Source: an uncultured Bdellovibrionales bacterium (lineage in GTDB: Bacteria > Patescibacteriota > Minisyncoccia > Moranbacterales > UBA2206). From it: DNA of 64,000 nucleotides. Under the pieces are notes generated by a model. That model was not told where the DNA came from, did no database searches, and saw only the letters and a list, made by a program, of their open reading frames with translations. Positions 18,547 through 40,541 of this stretch are shown here, in pieces (positions within the stretch are counted from its first letter, which is position 1; the number at the start of each line of letters is the position of its first letter). The stretch is taken from contig CAZIFD010000001.1 of assembly GCA_964538685.1 (NCBI GenBank), positions 13,221-77,220 on the forward strand. The letters run 5' to 3'. Position numbers and translations under genes: made by a program.

Positions 18547-18597
18547 TTATCCACAACCTTGCAACTGGCAAGGTTTTCTTTTGGTGATATAATAACA
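18547..18597 (+). repeat. 51-bp direct repeat copy 1: DnaA-box consensus (TTATCCACA) + hairpin (ccttgcaactggcaagg) + extended -10 (TGaTATAAT)
   Basis: ttatccacaaccttgcaactggcaaggttttcttttggtgatataataaca. Identical except for 1 nt to the copy at 19647-19697. Confidence 0.8.
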
Positions 18598-18656
18598 CTA
18601 TAACAATTTCAAAAGTTGATTCTGGCTTGGGAGCTGGAATGGTGCAATAAAATCTT

Positions 18657-19646: not shown

Positions 19647-19697
19647 TTATCCACAACCTTGCAACTTGCAAGGTTTTCTTTTGGTGATATAATAACA
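19647..19697 (+). repeat. 51-bp direct repeat copy 2 (DnaA-box + hairpin + extended -10), exactly 1100 bp from copy 1
   Basis: ttatccacaaccttgcaacttgcaaggttttcttttggtgatataataaca. Confidence 0.8.
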
Positions 19698-19768
19698 TTG
19701 CAATATAACACTAATTCTTAGCTGTCATTCTTGCAAAAGCAAGGATTCGGTGTGAGAGATAAAAAATT

Positions 19769-20434
19769 ATGGAAAAATTAACTTCCAAACAAAATATGGT
19801 TTTGGATTGTATCCGAGAATTGATTGATCAAGAAAAAGTCAATCCCACTACTTACAAAGTTCACAAATGTCTTAAGGGACAAGGAATTGAAGTTGGCAGT
19901 CTCAAGGGGACGGTACAAGTGATTGAGGCTTTGGAAAAAAAGGATCTAATCAAAAGAGACAAGGATAAAAAAATTTATTTAGTGGAAAACAAAAGCTTTG
20001 CCAATCTTCGCAATATTTTTTCTATTCCGATGTACGGTTTGGCTTCTTGCGGAGAGGCTTTGGCTTATGCTGAAGACAATGTGGATGGATATCTTCAAAT
20101 TTCCAAAAGTCTTTTCCGGCAGGATGATCCGGCCAAACTTTTTGCGGTTAAGTCGCTGGGAGACTCAATGGACAAGGATCAAATTTCCGATGGTGATTAT
20201 GTGGTTTTTGAAAAGAAAGATGCAGATTTTGATTTTGAGAACAAAATTGTCGTGGCGGTTATCAATGGGATGGCAACCATCAAACGCTACCGGAAACTTA
20301 AGGGAGGACTGATTGGACTTTTTCCAAATTCCACCAACAAAGTTCATCAACCGATCTACTTGGATGAATCCGACTCAATTTTGATTGCCGGAATTTTCAG
20401 AAAAGTATTGCCAGTGAGTTTTGTGAGTTTGTAA
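19769..20434 (+). CDS. lexA: LexA-family repressor (wHTH + S24 peptidase domain)
   Basis: C-terminal VKSLGDSMDKDQISDGDYVVF...NGMATIKRY (Ser/Lys dyad); 221 aa. Confidence 0.8.
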   Translation: MEKLTSKQNMVLDCIRELIDQEKVNPTTYKVHKCLKGQGIEVGSLKGTVQVIEALEKKDLIKRDKDKKIYLVENKSFANLRNIFSIPMYGLASCGEALAYAEDNVDGYLQISKSLFRQDDPAKLFAVKSLGDSMDKDQISDGDYVVFEKKDADFDFENKIVVAVINGMATIKRYRKLKGGLIGLFPNSTNKVHQPIYLDESDSILIAGIFRKVLPVSFVSL

Positions 20435-20553
20435 GTTTTTTAAAAACCGCATCTTATTTTGATTAATCCGAGAGCGGTGTGGATAAGTTCAATTCTTGGC
20501 TTAAAACCTGCTACTTGGCAGGTTTTTATCTTGTGGTATAATAAGCATTACCT

Positions 20554-20569
20554 ACACAATATATAGTGT
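20554..20569 (+). promoter_or_regulatory. NrdR-box-like 16-bp palindrome ACACAATATATAGTGT between the extended -10 (20534-20542) and the nrdR start codon
   Basis: Matches the published NrdR operator consensus acaCwAtATaTwGtgt, as recalled from memory. Positioned to overlap the transcription start. Confidence 0.5.
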
Positions 20570-27668: not shown

Positions 27669-27931
27669 CAAATTTTATTTCACAAAAAGCCTTGCCGGAA
27701 CGCGAGGCTTTTTTTGTGGATAACTTTTCCTTGACGGGATTTCTTTTTCAATTAGAATGTAAATGTTATGCAAAATAATTCAATGAAAAACTTGCTAGAG
27801 ATTATTCTAGTCCTCATTATCAAGGACGGTTTTTCGCTGGGCAAGTCTAGAGCATAACAAATAACTTTAGAGAGGCCACCCCGGCGAAAGCCGAGGGTTT
27901 TTTGTTTTTTGACAATTTAAAGGAGAAAAAA

Positions 27932-37230: not shown

Positions 37231-37302
37231 GCCGCCCTAGCTCAATGGCAGAGCAACTGTTTTGTAAACAGTAGGTTATCAGTTCAACTCTGATGGGCGG
37301 CT
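37231..37302 (+). tRNA. tRNA-Thr (anticodon TGT)
   Basis: Acceptor gccgccc/gggcggc, anticodon stem actgt/acagt, loop tttgtaa. CCA not encoded. Confidence 0.8.
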
Positions 37303-37367
37303 CAGGATTTTGGAATATAATAGAATACAAGTAGGGCGCGACAAAAAACAATTGAATAAAAAATTAT

Positions 37368-37450
37368 GGGTCGGTGGCAGAGTGGTCAATTGCACCTGAC
37401 TGTAAATCAGGCGACTTCGGTCTACGGCGGTTCAAATCCGTCCCGGCCCA
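37368..37450 (+). tRNA. tRNA-Tyr (anticodon GTA), long variable arm
   Basis: Anticodon loop ctgtaaa, long extra arm cgacttcggtct, T-loop ttcaaat. Confidence 0.75.
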
Positions 37451-37467
37451 CCCCATATTTTGGAACT

Positions 37468-37540
<73 letters not shown>

Positions 37541-37572
37541 CAGGAACGATAATTATAATTCAAATTAATTTT

Positions 37573-37728
37573 ATGACACGAGAAAATCTAGCCAAAATGA
37601 AATGCGAAGTTTGCAAGAGTATAAATTATTACTCAACTCGCAACAAGAAAAAAATCAAAGAAAAATTGGAGATGAAAAAACATTGTCCCAAATGTGGCAA
37701 GCACACCATTCACAAAGAAATGAAATAA
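37573..37728 (+). CDS. rpmG: 50S ribosomal protein L33
   Basis: MTRENLAKMKCEVCKSINYYSTRNKKKIKEKLEMKKHCPKCGKHTIHKEMK (CxxC...CxxC zinc ribbon). Confidence 0.8.
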   Translation: MTRENLAKMKCEVCKSINYYSTRNKKKIKEKLEMKKHCPKCGKHTIHKEMK

Positions 37729-37787
37729 ATTATTTTTTTGCCTCCCCTTTCTAAGGGGAGGATTTCGGATGAATTAAAAATAAAAAA

Positions 37788-37858
37788 GCGGGGTTCGTAC
37801 AGTGGTAGTACGGGAGTCTCCAAAACTTCTGACGTAGGTTCGATTCCTACACCCCGTG
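37788..37858 (+). tRNA. tRNA-Trp (anticodon CCA)
   Basis: D-arm gtac-agtggta-gtac, anticodon stem ggagt/acttc, loop ctccaaa, T-arm gtagg-ttcgatt-cctac. Confidence 0.75.
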
Positions 37859-37954
37859 CATTGTGGAAACGGCCACTTATTGAGAGGCTGTTTTTGTTTG
37901 GGAAAAAGTTGTTGGATTAATAAAAAAAGCTTTTTAAGCGCAGGATATATTAAA

Positions 37955-37986
37955 ATTCCATTTTGGCATATTACAAATTGGAATAT
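37955..37986 (+). promoter_or_regulatory. C-box-like inverted repeat ATTCCATTTTG-N9-CAAATTGGAAT immediately upstream of the controller-protein gene
   Basis: attccattttggcatattacaaattggaat; arms are 10/11 complementary. It ends 14 bp before the ATG at 38000. Confidence 0.55.
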
Positions 37987-37999
37987 ATCATATATACAT

Positions 38000-38221
38000 A
38001 TGAAAAAAGATATTTATTCCAGCGGTCATAAATTTTTAGCACAGCAATTAAAGATAGCGCGTGAAGCGTCGGGTTTTGATCAAAAAAAGGTTGCTGAACT
38101 TTTAGACAAAACGCAGTCTTATGTTTCAAAAATTGAGACAGGTCAGCGCCGAATTGATGTGATTCAGTTGCAGGGATTTGCGAAGATTTATAAAAAGAAG
38201 ATAGAATTTTTTATTAAATAA
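38000..38221 (+). CDS. XRE-family HTH protein, R-M controller (C) protein-like, 73 aa
   Basis: LAQQLKIAREASGFDQKKVAELLDKTQSYVSKIETGQRRIDVIQLQGFAKIY. It is the internal start of tool ORF 37856-38221, whose upstream part overlaps tRNA-Trp. Confidence 0.65.
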   Translation: MKKDIYSSGHKFLAQQLKIAREASGFDQKKVAELLDKTQSYVSKIETGQRRIDVIQLQGFAKIYKKKIEFFIK

Positions 38222-38231
38222 ATTAAAATTT

Positions 38232-38678
38232 ATGTGGGCAAAAAACTTAACAGGTATTAATGATGGAATTTTTAGAACTATTAATGGCAACTCCGATGAG
38301 ATGATTGGGGTGGGGAGATGTATGAAGGCGGGATTTCCTTGTTCACGTGCCGATGTAACCAATGGAAGATATGATGCTATTATTGATGTGGGAAATAATA
38401 AACTTCTCAGGGTGCAAATAAAAGGCACATCTGGCGGTAGTGTTAGTTTTACTGGAGGAGGCAGAAGTGGAAAGCAGATTAGCAGGGAAGTCAAACAAAG
38501 AACTTATAAATATTCTCCGAATGATTGTGATATAATTTTAGTTGTTGATGGCAGAAGCGGAGAGTGTTATATTATTCCAATTGAGGATGTTCAAAAAATG
38601 AGCGTTTCTAATTCGCTGGAAAAATTAAAAGCTTATAGGGAGAATTGGGATTTGCTTAAAAAATTGGCTGGAGTTTAA
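38232..38678 (+). CDS. candidate restriction endonuclease (small PD-(D/E)xK-like protein) convergent with the m5C methyltransferase
   Basis: 148 aa; RYDAIIDVGNNKLLRVQIKGTSGG...CDIILVVDGRSGECYIIP is compatible with a D...(E/Q)xK nuclease core. Placement C-gene -> this ORF -> <- MTase with a 4-bp 3' overlap. The assignment comes from context. Confidence 0.35.
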   Translation: MWAKNLTGINDGIFRTINGNSDEMIGVGRCMKAGFPCSRADVTNGRYDAIIDVGNNKLLRVQIKGTSGGSVSFTGGGRSGKQISREVKQRTYKYSPNDCDIILVVDGRSGECYIIPIEDVQKMSVSNSLEKLKAYRENWDLLKKLAGV

Positions 38679-40240
38679 TTCATTGCTTTCATCATTTTTC
38701 GTGCAACTGCTTCCAAAACAGTCACAGTCACGGAATTTCCAGCTTGCTTGTAAAGTGCAGAGTCGGCCAAGGCTGGAAGCTTGAAATTTTTTGGAAAACC
38801 TTGCAGTCTAAAACATTCAATTGGAGTCAGCTTTCTGATTCCTTTTTTGTCTTTAATAATTGGAACATTGTGACCTCCCATGCCCATATTGGCAGTGAGA
38901 GTGGGGCATACACCCTTTTTATTTTCCCGGACATATTGTCTTCTCCATTGATAAACCTTTCCTTCTTCTTTCACAAATCCTTTAAGTTTTGCGAAAAGAG
39001 GCTTACCATTATAATAGTATTTTTCAGGCACATTTTTCTCTAAAAGATCCGTGACTTTAACTTTTAATTTTTGTGGCTCAGGAAATTCAAATTTATCTAT
39101 ATAATTCTTATTTTTGAATCCCACAATATAAATTCTTTCCCGATTTTGTGGAATGTTTCCGTATTCCATGCTATTCAAAACTTTAGTTTTTACATGATAT
39201 CCCAAGTCTTCCAATGTTTTGAGAATTATTTTAAAGGTTTTTCCTCCATCGTGTCCTCTTAAATTTTTTACATTTTCCAAAAGGAATCCGGTAGGACTTC
39301 TTGTTTCTAAAATTCTCGCGATGTCAAAAAATAAATTGCCACGATCTTTTTCATCATTGAATCCCTTGCGGTATCCAGCTATGGAAAATGCCTGGCAGGG
39401 AAATCCGCCTAAAAGAAAATCAAATTCCGGCAAATCACCAATGCTGATTTTTCTTATGTCTTCTACGATGAGTTTGGATTTTTTGAAATTCAAATCATAG
39501 GTAGCTTTGCAATTTTTTTCAAAGTCATTTGCAAAAACTGTCTCAAAGCCTGCATTTTCAAATCCAAGCCTGATGCCTCCGACTCCAGCAAACAAATCAA
39601 GCGTTCTAAAAAGTTTTTGCTTGGTTGCATTGTTATTTTCAAGGCTTCTTTTTATCTCAATAACCACGCCTCTAATTTCAACCTCTTTTCTGTAAATCGG
39701 AAGCATTGTTTGGTTTGCCGGTTGTAACCGGAACTTGTTTTTTTCTCGGTAAATTTTTTTTAATGTAGCCTCGTTGTCGTCAATTATTGCAACAACAGTC
39801 TGACCATTTTCCGCCACAGATTGTTTTTTAATGACTACAATGTCCCCGTCAAATATTCCATCATCAATCATACTATCTCCTTGCACTCTTAGGGCATAAT
39901 ATTTTCCAGATTTGTTTATGGTGCTAGTAGCAATCATTATATTTTCATCTCTTGTTTCAATAGCTTTAATCGGCTGTCCAGCTGCGATTGTTCCGACAAA
40001 TGGTATTTTGACTAAGTTATATGGGCTTTTCTTTTTCAATTCAATCCCTCTGGCCGAGCTTCCGTTTTTTTCTATAAATCCTTTTTTCTCTAATGTTTCA
40101 ATATGTTGGTGTACGGTTGATAGTGCAGATAGTTTAAAATGTTTCCGTATTTCTTCAATGGTGGGGGATAATCCTTTTTTGTTGATATAGGATGTTATAA
40201 AGTCCAGTATTTTTTTTTGCTTTTTTGTTAGTGTGGGCAT
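38675..40240 (-). CDS. LexA-like repressor (wHTH + intact S24 autopeptidase domain) fused to a C5-cytosine DNA methyltransferase
   Basis: N-terminal 200 aa: LexA DBD, cleavage-site-like AAGQP, RVQGDSMIDDGIFDGDIVVIKK...ATLKKIY (Ser/Lys dyad). C-terminal 320 aa: m5C-MTase motifs DLFAGVGGIRLGFENAG (I), GGFPCQAFSIAG (IV), ENVKNL (VI), QAGNSV (X). Confidence 0.8.
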   Translation of the reverse strand: MPTLTKKQKKILDFITSYINKKGLSPTIEEIRKHFKLSALSTVHQHIETLEKKGFIEKNGSSARGIELKKKSPYNLVKIPFVGTIAAGQPIKAIETRDENIMIATSTINKSGKYYALRVQGDSMIDDGIFDGDIVVIKKQSVAENGQTVVAIIDDNEATLKKIYREKNKFRLQPANQTMLPIYRKEVEIRGVVIEIKRSLENNNATKQKLFRTLDLFAGVGGIRLGFENAGFETVFANDFEKNCKATYDLNFKKSKLIVEDIRKISIGDLPEFDFLLGGFPCQAFSIAGYRKGFNDEKDRGNLFFDIARILETRSPTGFLLENVKNLRGHDGGKTFKIILKTLEDLGYHVKTKVLNSMEYGNIPQNRERIYIVGFKNKNYIDKFEFPEPQKLKVKVTDLLEKNVPEKYYYNGKPLFAKLKGFVKEEGKVYQWRRQYVRENKKGVCPTLTANMGMGGHNVPIIKDKKGIRKLTPIECFRLQGFPKNFKLPALADSALYKQAGNSVTVTVLEAVARKMMKAMN

Positions 40241-40541
40241 ATAATTAGCCTAATATAAGTTTATTATATTAGTATTATATACCGAAAATTTACCGAAGTA
40301 CAAATACATCCAATTACGGCTTAAAATAACCCAATAATATATTGAGTCGAGACCGTCATCGACCGGGATTTTCCTTAAAGCTTACCTAAAACTAGGTGCT
40401 AGACCGGAACGGTGTGCATAGTAAAATCAAACCAAATAGAGTCTTATTTAGGGCCTCTTTTTTGGTTCTAACTTTTTGCTAAGCGTGTATGATGTTAGAG
40501 CTTTGTGTGGCAAAAGAGAAATATAAATTTTAACTAATCCT

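What the first reader, a model, noticed from the sequence alone, without database searches (positions are those of the whole stretch)
38675..40240. Complete autocleavable LexA fused to a C5-cytosine methyltransferase
One 521-aa protein carries an N-terminal LexA module. It has a winged HTH, an Ala-Gly cleavage-site-like AAGQP, the Ser (GDSM) and Lys (ATLKK) catalytic dyad, and a full beta-sheet dimerisation region. A ~320-aa m5C-MTase follows (FxGxG motif I, PCQ motif IV, ENV motif VI, QxGNSV motif X). HTH-MTase fusions that autoregulate are known, but a fusion to an intact S24 autopeptidase is distinctive. It implies the repressor part can be removed by RecA-stimulated self-cleavage, which would couple methyltransferase expression or activity to the SOS response. 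A separate canonical lexA is at 19769. Candidate operator: the direct repeat taccgaaaatttaccgaag in the gene's upstream region (40270-40295, minus-strand promoter side).
Basis: partly seen in the sequence, partly recalled or inferred. Interest (0 to 1): 0.8.

Follow-up and report, generated by a model that had tools for sequence, protein, structure and literature searches.

The report
LexA repressor fused to restriction-modification methyltransferase
The DNA methyltransferase of a restriction-modification system carries a complete, apparently self-cleavable LexA (DNA-damage) repressor at its front end, and the same LexA type is attached to many kinds of methyltransferase across the Patescibacteria, which points to an undescribed way of tying DNA methylation to DNA damage.

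Summary
ORF 38675-40240 (-) encodes a 521-aa protein with LexA_DNA_bind, Peptidase_S24 and C5 DNA_methylase domains. The Ala87-Gly88 cleavage site, Ser123 and Lys161 are intact.

It is not a chimera. Full-length relatives (63-92% identical) occur in at least 80 species-level Patescibacteria genomes, under strong purifying selection in all three parts.

It is the methyltransferase of a Type II restriction-modification (R-M) module, with a convergent PD-(D/E)XK nuclease and an HTH controller (C) protein. The target is probably GCNGC.

A direct repeat, TTCGGT-N5-TTCGGT with an 11-bp period, sits between -35 and -10 in most loci. Its sequence changes together with the LexA recognition helix.

The same LexA clade is also fused to D12, N6_N4 and Eco57I-type methyltransferases, or is encoded just upstream of methyltransferase genes, always with the same promoter cassette.

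Most likely mechanism: an autorepressor that RecA* can inactivate, which would make methyltransferase expression DNA-damage inducible. Autoregulation has strong comparative support. Cleavage and its physiological role are inferred.

I found no description of this in the searched literature. The "canonical lexA" at 19769 is in fact the more divergent LexA-like protein of the two.

The parts
38675..40240 (-). Gene for the 521-aa LexA-C5 methyltransferase fusion, stop codon included
   Evidence: ORF; domains; a 100% identical protein is in public assemblies
40025..40240 (-). LexA winged-HTH DNA-binding domain, residues 1-72; recognition helix S41-T-V-H-Q-H46
   Evidence: Pfam PF01726; the helix type covaries with the operator core
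39977..39982 (-). Codons for Ala87-Gly88, the predicted self-cleavage site
   Evidence: Aligns with E. coli LexA A84-G85; Ala in 208/210 and Gly in 210/210 fusion sequences
39659..40003 (-). Peptidase S24 catalytic and dimerisation domain, residues 80-194; Ser123 at 39872-39874, Lys161 at 39758-39760
   Evidence: Pfam PF00717 8e-31; Ser and Lys present in 209/210; 64-75% identical across all fusion classes
39611..39658 (-). Short linker between S24 and the methyltransferase, residues 195-210
   Evidence: pLDDT below 50 at residues 199-208 in the AlphaFold model; free-standing relatives end exactly here
38678..39610 (-). C5-cytosine DNA methyltransferase domain, residues 211-521; motifs I, IV, VI, VIII and X present; closest solved structure M.HhaI
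   Evidence: Pfam PF00145 1.8e-93; PDB sequence and fold matches
40274..40303 (-). Promoter with embedded operator: -35 TTGTAC (40298-40303), direct repeats TTCGGT (40292-40297 and 40281-40286, 11-bp period), -10 TATAAT (40274-40279)
   Evidence: Sequence; the cassette is conserved in 65/81 C5 loci and in loci of the other methyltransferase classes; no second exact copy in window intergenic DNA
38232..38678 (+). Convergent 148-aa PD-(D/E)XK protein, the probable restriction endonuclease
   Evidence: Pfam PDDEXK_5 6.5e-8; the same position is taken by other nuclease families, including RE_Bsp6I and an NgoFVII-like protein, in related loci
38000..38221 (+). 73-aa HTH_3 controller (C) protein gene, upstream of the endonuclease gene
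   Evidence: Pfam HTH_3 2e-11; PADLOC Control_protein 1e-5; present in 16 related loci
37954..37990 (+). Candidate C-box and promoter of the C-R operon (AATTCCA..TTGGCATA..TTGGAATA, then TATCAT)
   Evidence: Sequence; the same repeat pattern lies upstream of C genes in the 16 loci; promoter-like hit at 37963-37991
37788..37859 (+). tRNA-Trp, the last gene of a tRNA cluster that borders the R-M module
   Evidence: ARAGORN

Best explanation
This is the modification enzyme of a Type II restriction-modification module, probably GCNGC-specific. Its gene begins with a complete LexA repressor taken from a Patescibacteria LexA clade that is largely dedicated to DNA methyltransferases.

The LexA part dimerises through its S24 domain. 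It binds the direct repeat TTCGGT-N5-TTCGGT, which fills the spacer between -35 and -10 of its own promoter. In this way the protein sets its own level (autorepression).

When RecA-ssDNA filaments form, after DNA damage or cuts by the partner nuclease, the S24 domain cleaves the Ala87-Gly88 bond. This detaches the DNA-binding domain and derepresses the promoter. A burst of methyltransferase then re-protects the chromosome, which would be a Type II analogue of restriction alleviation.

The endonuclease is controlled separately by a C protein.

Shown here by sequence and comparison: the domain composition, the intact catalytic residues, the R-M context, and the operator with its covariation.

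Inferred, not shown: binding, cleavage, RecA dependence, and physiological role.
For: - **Domains and catalytic residues:**
- **Selection:** purifying selection on the DNA-binding domain, S24 and the methyltransferase alike, with dN/dS 0.01-0.07.
- **Operator position:** it lies inside the promoter in 65/81 loci, is exact in 52, and has no other exact copy in 657 kb of flanks.
- **Covariation:** the operator core follows the recognition helix whatever the methyltransferase class. ST[VI]H[EQ]H goes with TTCGG (53/57), and STAH[YHF][YH] or STVHFH goes with TTCTA (11/11).
- **Precedent for the repeat:** an 11-bp-period direct repeat is a known LexA operator architecture, GTTC-N7-GTTC (PMC8565304).
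- **Breadth:** the same LexA clade is fused to D12, N6_N4, Eco57I-type and C5+Eco57I methyltransferases. It is also encoded 2-25 nt upstream of methyltransferase genes, always with the same promoter cassette.
- **S24 conservation:** S24 is more conserved (64-75%) than the DNA-binding domain (41-64%) across classes.
- **R-M context and target:**; GCNGC depletion with O/E 0.40 in the window and 0.55 in the loci.
- **Known analogue:** methyltransferases with fused repressor domains that autoregulate are established (PMC12707154).
Against: - No experiment shows binding, cleavage or induction.
- recA is not in the window, so a RecA partner is assumed from general knowledge of these genomes.
- The benefit of inducing only the methyltransferase is conjecture. 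In at least one unfused relative (L095) LexA, the methyltransferase and a HinfI-type nuclease appear co-transcribed. There, damage would raise both.
- A free LexA of the wider clade with the same operator is not next to a methyltransferase (L190). The operator may therefore be the ancestral LexA box of the clade, and cross-talk with other genes elsewhere in the genome is not excluded.
- The AlphaFold model is only moderately confident (pLDDT 73) and says nothing about domain arrangement.
Confidence: 0.6

Rival explanations
1. The LexA part is only a dimeric autorepressor. The S24 domain supplies dimerisation, and self-cleavage does not occur or has no role in vivo. The system would then behave like SsoII/Ecl18kI/EcoRII-type methyltransferases that carry a fused repressor.
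For: The operator and promoter layout explains autoregulation without any cleavage. Fused-repressor methyltransferases are known.
Against: The Ala-Gly site, Ser and Lys are intact in 207/210 sequences across four methyltransferase classes. S24 is the best-conserved part of the module. A mere dimerisation scaffold would not be expected to keep the catalytic dyad and the scissile bond invariant.
Confidence: 0.15
2. The fused LexA is also, or mainly, the cell's SOS master repressor. The methyltransferase would then be a passenger on the housekeeping lexA gene, and the TTCGG direct repeat would be the genome-wide SOS box.
For: By HMM score the fused module is the canonical LexA of this genome, at 187 bits against 85.7 for the stand-alone gene. 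A free relative carries the same operator without a methyltransferase. NCBI names these proteins LexA.
Against: No other exact operator was found in intergenic DNA of the 64-kb window or in 657 kb of flanks. The module moves between unrelated R-M systems and lies beside swapped nucleases, recombinases and tRNA genes, as mobile defence genes do. The DNA-binding domain and operator diversify together, which would be hard to reconcile with control of a conserved regulon. A conserved stand-alone S24 repressor family coexists with the fusion in this genome.
Confidence: 0.12
3. Cleavage acts mainly on the enzyme rather than on transcription. Removing the DNA-binding domain would change the activity, localisation or stability of the methyltransferase, for example through protease degradation of the fragments. 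This could lower protection and let the nuclease kill a damaged or infected cell, or it could free the enzyme from the operator.
For: A translational fusion guarantees that every methyltransferase molecule is subject to cleavage. From my own knowledge, LexA fragments in E. coli become ClpXP/Lon substrates. The new C-terminus here would end in -IAA.
Against: Unfused lexA-methyltransferase operons with the same promoter cassette exist. In those, cleavage cannot touch the methyltransferase polypeptide. The shared function is therefore more likely transcriptional.
Confidence: 0.1
4. Assembly or annotation artefact: two adjacent genes, lexA and a methyltransferase gene, joined by a frameshift or a chimeric contig.
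For: Unfused lexA-methyltransferase gene pairs do exist in relatives.
Against: The open frame is continuous. The identical protein occurs in independent assemblies. There are 120 clusters and 80 genome loci with the same uninterrupted architecture and a conserved linker length.
Confidence: 0.01

Closest known systems
C5 methyltransferases with a fused N-terminal repressor domain (M.SsoII, M.Ecl18kI, M.EcoRII, M.MspI type)
   Same: An N-terminal DNA-binding region is fused to a C5 methyltransferase, and it binds an operator in the enzyme's own promoter to autoregulate an R-M system (PMC12707154 section 11; PMC3978073).
   Different: In those enzymes the N-terminal region is a short (about 70 aa) HTH with no peptidase. 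Here it is a full 200-aa LexA with an intact S24 self-cleavage domain. The operator is an 11-bp-period direct repeat. The nuclease has its own C protein and is convergent, not divergent.
LexA (SOS repressor; TIGR00498, PF01726 + PF00717)
   Same: The winged HTH, the Ala-Gly site, the Ser/Lys dyad, an operator in its own promoter, and a direct-repeat operator geometry like the alphaproteobacterial GTTC-N7-GTTC.
   Different: It carries a 310-aa DNA methyltransferase at its C-terminus. The operator was found only at its own promoter, so there is no sign of an SOS regulon. The gene sits in a mobile R-M module.
C (controller) proteins of Type II R-M systems
   Same: A small dedicated transcription factor with a private operator that times and balances expression of R-M genes. 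The free-standing relatives of this LexA occupy the first-gene position of the operon, as a controller would.
   Different: C proteins are HTH_3 activator-repressors of the nuclease gene and have no signal-sensing domain. This LexA controls the methyltransferase and carries a built-in damage-responsive switch. In the window both kinds coexist.
Restriction alleviation of Type I systems (ClpXP degradation of HsdR after DNA damage)
   Same: The proposed outcome is the same: after DNA damage the balance is shifted toward protection of the host chromosome (PMC12707154 section 25).
   Different: The mechanism is different. That is host proteolysis of the restriction subunit. Here the proposal is self-cleavage of a repressor fused to the methyltransferase. 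Nothing comparable was found in the searched literature for Type II systems.
DNA-damage-responsive regulators of other defence systems (CapH/CapP of CBASS; phage CI-type S24 repressors; UmuDAb, HdiR)
   Same: A repressor is inactivated by proteolysis in response to a DNA-damage signal, which switches on a defence or mobile-element gene set (CapH/CapP from my own knowledge; CI, HdiR and UmuDAb in PMC8565304).
   Different: Those regulators are separate proteins with different DNA-binding domains, and none is fused to its regulated enzyme or linked to R-M methyltransferases.

Membership tests
LexA repressor (TIGR00498) | N-terminal LexA-type winged-HTH DNA-binding domain | tested here: met
   PF01726 2.4e-17 over the whole model; TIGR00498 187 bits against a cut-off of 111; matches T. 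maritima and E. coli LexA structures
LexA repressor (TIGR00498) | S24 domain with Ser/Lys dyad and an Ala-Gly scissile bond | tested here: met
   S123, K161 and A87-G88 align with E. coli S119, K156 and A84-G85; intact in 207/210 relatives
LexA repressor (TIGR00498) | Binds a repeated operator in its own promoter (autoregulation) | tested here: met
   Comparative evidence only. The direct repeat lies between -35 and -10 in 65/81 loci and covaries with the recognition helix.
LexA repressor (TIGR00498) | RecA*-stimulated self-cleavage | not testable with these tools
   Needs purified protein; recA is not within the window
LexA repressor (TIGR00498) | Controls a multi-gene SOS regulon through the same operator | tested here: not met
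   No other exact operator in window intergenic DNA or in 657 kb of flanks. The rest of the genome could not be searched.
C5-cytosine DNA methyltransferase (PF00145 / TIGR00675) | Conserved motifs I (FxGxG), IV (PCQ), VI (ENV), VIII (QxRxR) and X (GNSV), with a target-recognition region between VIII and IX | tested here: met
   FAGVGG, GFPCQ, ENV, QNRER and AGNSV in the sequence; PF00145 over positions 1-323 of 324; M.HhaI full-length match 2e-58
Type II restriction-modification system | Adjacent restriction endonuclease gene | tested here: inconclusive
   The convergent 148-aa protein matches PDDEXK_5 only weakly (6.5e-8). In related loci the same slot holds RE_Bsp6I-like and NgoFVII-like nucleases. 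No activity test.
Type II restriction-modification system | Depletion of the target site in the host genome | tested here: met
   GCNGC O/E 0.40 (37 against 93) in the window and 0.55 (624 against 1127) in 644 kb of related loci; non-palindromic controls 0.9-1.3. The target itself is inferred from the partner nuclease families.
Type II restriction-modification system | Controller protein with C-box upstream of the nuclease gene | tested here: met
   HTH_3 73-aa gene with a conserved repeat upstream in 16 loci
Autoregulating methyltransferases with a fused repressor (SsoII/Ecl18kI/EcoRII type) | Short N-terminal HTH (about 70 aa) homologous to the SsoII-type regulatory region, with the operator in a divergent R/M intergenic region | tested here: not met
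   The N-terminal region is a 200-aa LexA+S24. The R and M genes are convergent and R has its own C protein. It works like this family but is not a homologous member.

The most novel reading that the evidence does not exclude
A phylum-wide, undescribed class of R-M control. A dedicated LexA paralogue, free-standing or fused to any of at least four methyltransferase families, acts as the controller of the modification gene. It would make DNA methylation (and in some operons restriction) directly responsive to RecA-sensed DNA damage, as a Type II counterpart of restriction alleviation. A conserved DnaA-box-like element (TGTGGATAA) beside the promoter possibly adds replication-state input.
Probability: 0.45. 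Interest if true: 0.85.

Novelty: new variant of a known kind. Interest (0 to 1): 0.8.

Why it matters
R-M systems must keep methylation ahead of restriction. The known controls are C proteins, short repressor domains fused to methyltransferases, promoter methylation and antisense RNA. A self-cleavable LexA would add a controller that reads a physiological signal, namely RecA filaments. It would link genome defence and epigenetic marking to the DNA-damage response in a directly testable way, because one protein, one 30-bp promoter, RecA and ssDNA are enough.

It also matters for annotation and for SOS-regulon reconstruction in Patescibacteria. Many proteins named "LexA" there belong to R-M modules, and the HMM-canonical LexA of this genome is the one on the methyltransferase.

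The helix-operator covariation across dozens of variants is a ready-made data set on how LexA specificity evolves on direct repeats.

Tried and rejected
- **Chimera or frameshift:** rejected, because the architecture is uninterrupted in 120 clusters and 80 genome loci.
- **Phage origin:** viral contigs hold only methyltransferase-only homologues. The LexA module is almost absent from them: 2 short contigs at 51-52% identity and none for the window's own module.
- **Genome-wide SOS box:** the only other exact operator match in the window (47594) is inside a coding region.
- **Palindromic operator:** none is present; the repeat is direct on one strand.
- **Operator containing the methylation site:** there is no GCNGC in the operator.
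- **Literature:** nine full-text searches and a 2025 R-M review found no LexA-methyltransferase fusion and no LexA-controlled R-M system. The 2017 paper on the Patescibacteria SOS network (doi 10.1111/1462-2920.13826) is not held. I could not check whether it noted these proteins or this motif.
- **recA and dnaA:** searched in the window, not present.
- **Structure:** the AlphaFold model (pLDDT 73) added only confirmation of the separate folds.
Full report
**1. The observation**

The ORF at 38675-40240 on the minus strand is continuous and encodes 521 aa.
- Pfam finds LexA_DNA_bind (residues 1-65, 2.4e-17), Peptidase_S24 (80-194, 8e-31) and C5 DNA_methylase (211-517, 1.8e-93).
- NCBIfam scores the first 200 residues at 187 bits on the LexA equivalog model (cut-off 111). 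The rest scores 341 bits on the dcm model.
- Aligned with E. coli LexA, the scissile Ala84-Gly85, Ser119 and Lys156 correspond to Ala87-Gly88, Ser123 and Lys161.
- The closest solved structures are M.HhaI for residues 211-519 and Thermotoga and E. coli LexA for residues 1-199. No solved chain covers both halves.
- An AlphaFold model (pLDDT 73) shows the expected folds, joined by a disordered linker at residues 199-208.

**2. Not an artefact, and not rare**

- An identical protein is present in independent public assemblies.
- The 120 best protein clusters (71-100% identity, 513-536 aa) all carry the same three domains.
- A scan of one genome per species returned 465 relatives. All 80 best loci encode residues 1-520 at 63-92% identity.
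- Nearly all come from Patescibacteria (Candidate Phyla Radiation) metagenome-assembled genomes: Moranbacteria, Paceibacteria, Uhrbacteria, Magasanikbacteria, Nomurabacteria, Shapirobacteria and others.
- The cleavage site and catalytic dyad are intact in 207 of 210 fusion sequences examined.
- Between close relatives, synonymous sites are saturated, while dN/dS is 0.01-0.07 in the DNA-binding domain, S24 domain and methyltransferase alike. All three parts are therefore under strong purifying selection.

**3. Context: a Type II R-M module**

- In the window the gene is convergent with a 148-aa PD-(D/E)XK protein (38232-38678).
- That gene is preceded by a 73-aa HTH_3 protein (38000-38221) that matches controller-protein models.
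- The module abuts a tRNA cluster.
- Upstream of the HTH_3 gene lies a repeat, AATTCCA..TTGGCATA..TTGGAATA, that recurs in the 16 related loci with this C protein. This is a typical C-box arrangement.
- In 81 related loci the slot immediately downstream of the fusion is filled by at least eight unrelated families. These include RE_Bsp6I-like (25 loci) and NgoFVII-like (8 loci) nucleases.
- Vsr lies upstream in 7 loci and a large serine recombinase lies nearby in 10.
- From my memory of the Pfam descriptions, Bsp6I cuts GCNGC and NgoFVII recognises GCSGC.
- Consistent with this, GCNGC is the most depleted of the short palindromes tested across the related loci. The counts are 37 observed against 93 expected in the window and 624 against 1127 in 644 kb of related loci. 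GCSGC and GCWGC are equally depleted, and non-palindromic controls lie near 1.
- The target GCNGC is an inference.

**4. The operator**

TTCGGT-N5-TTCGGT (11-bp period) fills the 18-bp spacer between TTGTAC and TATAAT, 34-57 nt before the ATG.
- In the 81 loci, TTCGG-N6-TTCGG is exact in 52 and within two mismatches in 65. It always lies between a -35-like TTGnnn and the -10.
- Outside these promoters there is no exact copy in 657 kb of flanking DNA. The only other exact copy in the window lies inside a coding region.
- The repeat sequence changes together with the LexA recognition helix:
  - ST[VI]H[EQ]H goes with TTCGG (53 of 57).
  - STAH[YHF][YH] or STVHFH goes with TTCTA (11 of 11).
  - SG[VI]YQH goes with TTCTG/TTCGG (5 of 5).
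  - ST[AI]HHH goes with TCGAA (2 of 2).
- The same covariation holds in 63 further promoters from metagenomes.
- A direct repeat with 11-bp period is an established LexA operator geometry, GTTC-N7-GTTC in Alphaproteobacteria (PMC8565304).
- This is strong comparative evidence that the LexA domain binds the repeat and occludes its own promoter.

**5. The wider picture**

- A search of 1.8 billion representative proteins showed that the same LexA module (55-65% identical) is also fused to D12 N6-adenine methyltransferases, N6_N4 methyltransferases, an Eco57I-type methyltransferase, and a C5+Eco57I protein.
- Their loci are R-M systems. Examples are a second methyltransferase plus an RE_Alw26IDE nuclease, or a C protein plus a small convergent gene.
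- All carry the same promoter cassette.
- Free-standing 196-aa LexAs, 61-70% identical to these modules, are common.
- All five that I could place on contigs sit 2-25 nt upstream of a methyltransferase gene and in the same orientation. One is lexA-N6_N4 methyltransferase-HinfI nuclease. Four are lexA plus an 840-aa C5/Eco57I-type methyltransferase with a convergent gene of about 395 aa. They therefore represent two system types. They have the same cassette.
- In a metagenome scan seeded with a free LexA, 72 of 75 recognisable relatives were fused to methyltransferases: about 54 N6_N4, 16 D12 and 2 of another N6_N4 type.
- Across classes the S24 domain is 64-75% identical and the DNA-binding domain 41-64%.
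- C5 fusions with alternative helices have DNA-binding domains closer to those on other methyltransferase classes than to the window's. The repressor-operator cassette and the enzymes have therefore been shuffled.
- The association is strong but not exclusive. One free relative on a predicted viral contig has the same operator and no adjacent methyltransferase.

**6. Mechanism**

- Best supported: the fusion is an autorepressor of the modification gene. Fusing repressor and enzyme makes promoter activity track enzyme concentration, as in the SsoII/Ecl18kI/EcoRII methyltransferases (PMC12707154).
- What is new is the intact S24 switch. Its invariance argues that cleavage is used.
- By analogy with LexA, RecA-ssDNA filaments would trigger cleavage at Ala87-Gly88. 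That would release the DNA-binding domain and derepress the promoter.
- I consider the most likely benefit to be protection. Damage repair, and cuts by the partner nuclease, create RecA filaments and unmethylated DNA. Extra methyltransferase would stop a runaway of self-restriction.
- This last step is conjecture. In operons where the nuclease is co-transcribed (L095), damage would induce the whole system, which fits a damage-induced or infection-induced defence equally well.

Rivals:
- S24 serves only as a dimerisation scaffold. The invariant dyad argues against this.
- The fused LexA doubles as the SOS master repressor. Against this are the private operator and the mobile context, but the rest of the genome was not searchable.
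- Cleavage acts on enzyme stability or activity. Against this is the existence of unfused operons.

**7. The second lexA**

- The gene at 19769-20434 is LexA-like, with a Cys-Gly site at the position of the scissile bond. By my own knowledge this resembles UmuD.
- It scores only 85.7 bits on the LexA model and is 31% identical to the fused module.
- It belongs to a conserved family of about 221 aa in which Pfam mostly sees only the S24 domain. NCBI names the family "S24 family peptidase".
- It lies next to nrdR-nrdD.
- Which of the two runs any SOS regulon is unknown.

**8. Novelty**

- Nine full-text searches and a 2025 review of R-M biology, which never mentions LexA, gave no description of LexA-methyltransferase fusions or LexA-controlled R-M systems.
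- The one paper on the Patescibacteria SOS network is not held, so prior mention cannot be excluded.
- Databases annotate these proteins automatically, either as LexA or as a methyltransferase.
- I rate it a new variant of a known kind: the known kind is a methyltransferase with a fused autorepressor, and the new feature is a damage-cleavable LexA. It is widespread and experimentally tractable.

Noticed in passing
Related loci L002-L188, about 45-85 nt upstream of the lexA or fusion start; window 18547-18555, 19647-19655, 20478-20486, 27715-27723: A perfect DnaA-box-like 9-mer (TGTGGATAA, the complement of TTATCCACA) sits 9-16 nt upstream of the first operator repeat in 51/78 C5 loci and 46/63 metagenome promoters. 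It is also present in the four loci of the other methyltransferase classes and in the unfused operons. The window's own fusion promoter lacks it. The four exact copies in the window are all intergenic: upstream of a Fic/DOC-like gene, upstream of the stand-alone lexA-like gene, upstream of nrdR, and after ndk. It may be a DnaA site or another promoter-proximal regulator site.
   Followed up: partly
window 18547-18600 and 19647-19700: A promoter block of about 50 bp is duplicated almost exactly upstream of the 326-aa Fic/DOC-like gene (PADLOC PDC-S23, 1e-107) and of the stand-alone lexA-like gene. It reads TTATCCACA, then the palindrome ACCTTGCAAC(T/G)TGCAAGGT, then GTGATATAAT. This suggests the two genes share a regulator, perhaps the 221-aa S24 repressor itself.
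   Followed up: partly
window 20554-20569: An NrdR-box-like palindrome, ACACAATATATAGTGT, lies just downstream of the -10 of the nrdR promoter, ahead of nrdR and the class III ribonucleotide reductase gene.
   Followed up: no
whole window: TCGA (O/E 0.22, 29 observed against 133 expected) and ACGT (O/E 0.16, 8 against 49) are much more depleted than GCNGC in this window but not in the pooled related loci. This suggests further R-M systems with these targets in this genome.
   Followed up: no
L002-L085, the gene immediately downstream of the fusion: One conserved methyltransferase (at least 63% identical) is paired with at least eight unrelated convergent gene families. Members are RE_Bsp6I-like, NgoFVII-like, PDDEXK_5 and five families with no Pfam match (271-360 aa). 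This implies repeated replacement of the nuclease beside a stable LexA-methyltransferase gene.
   Followed up: partly
L002-L085 flanks: Vsr (very-short-patch repair endonuclease) lies divergently upstream of the fusion in 7 loci. A large serine recombinase lies within 2.5 kb in 10 loci. In the window the module abuts a cluster of four tRNA genes (37231-37859). These are signs of mobility and of coping with 5mC deamination.
   Followed up: no
L190:1235-1828 (IMG/VR contig): A free 197-aa LexA, 52% identical to the R-M-linked clade, has the same TTCGGT-N5-TTCGGT operator and a TTGTCCACA box. It has a Cys-Gly in place of Ala-Gly and no adjacent methyltransferase. It may represent the ancestral or phage-borne form of the cassette.
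   Followed up: partly
L004, L017-L082, 5-20 nt downstream of the -10 of the fusion promoter: A further conserved block, AATTGTAGC(G/A)CAAA, follows the -10 in many C5 loci but not in the window. Many loci also have GTCAA shortly before the ATG. Function unknown.
   Followed up: no
L087-L090 (giant-virus MAG contigs) and L086 (phage contig): Methyltransferase-only homologues of the C5 domain, with no LexA part, occur at 44-46% identity on giant-virus metagenome contigs and at 65% on one phage contig.
   Followed up: no
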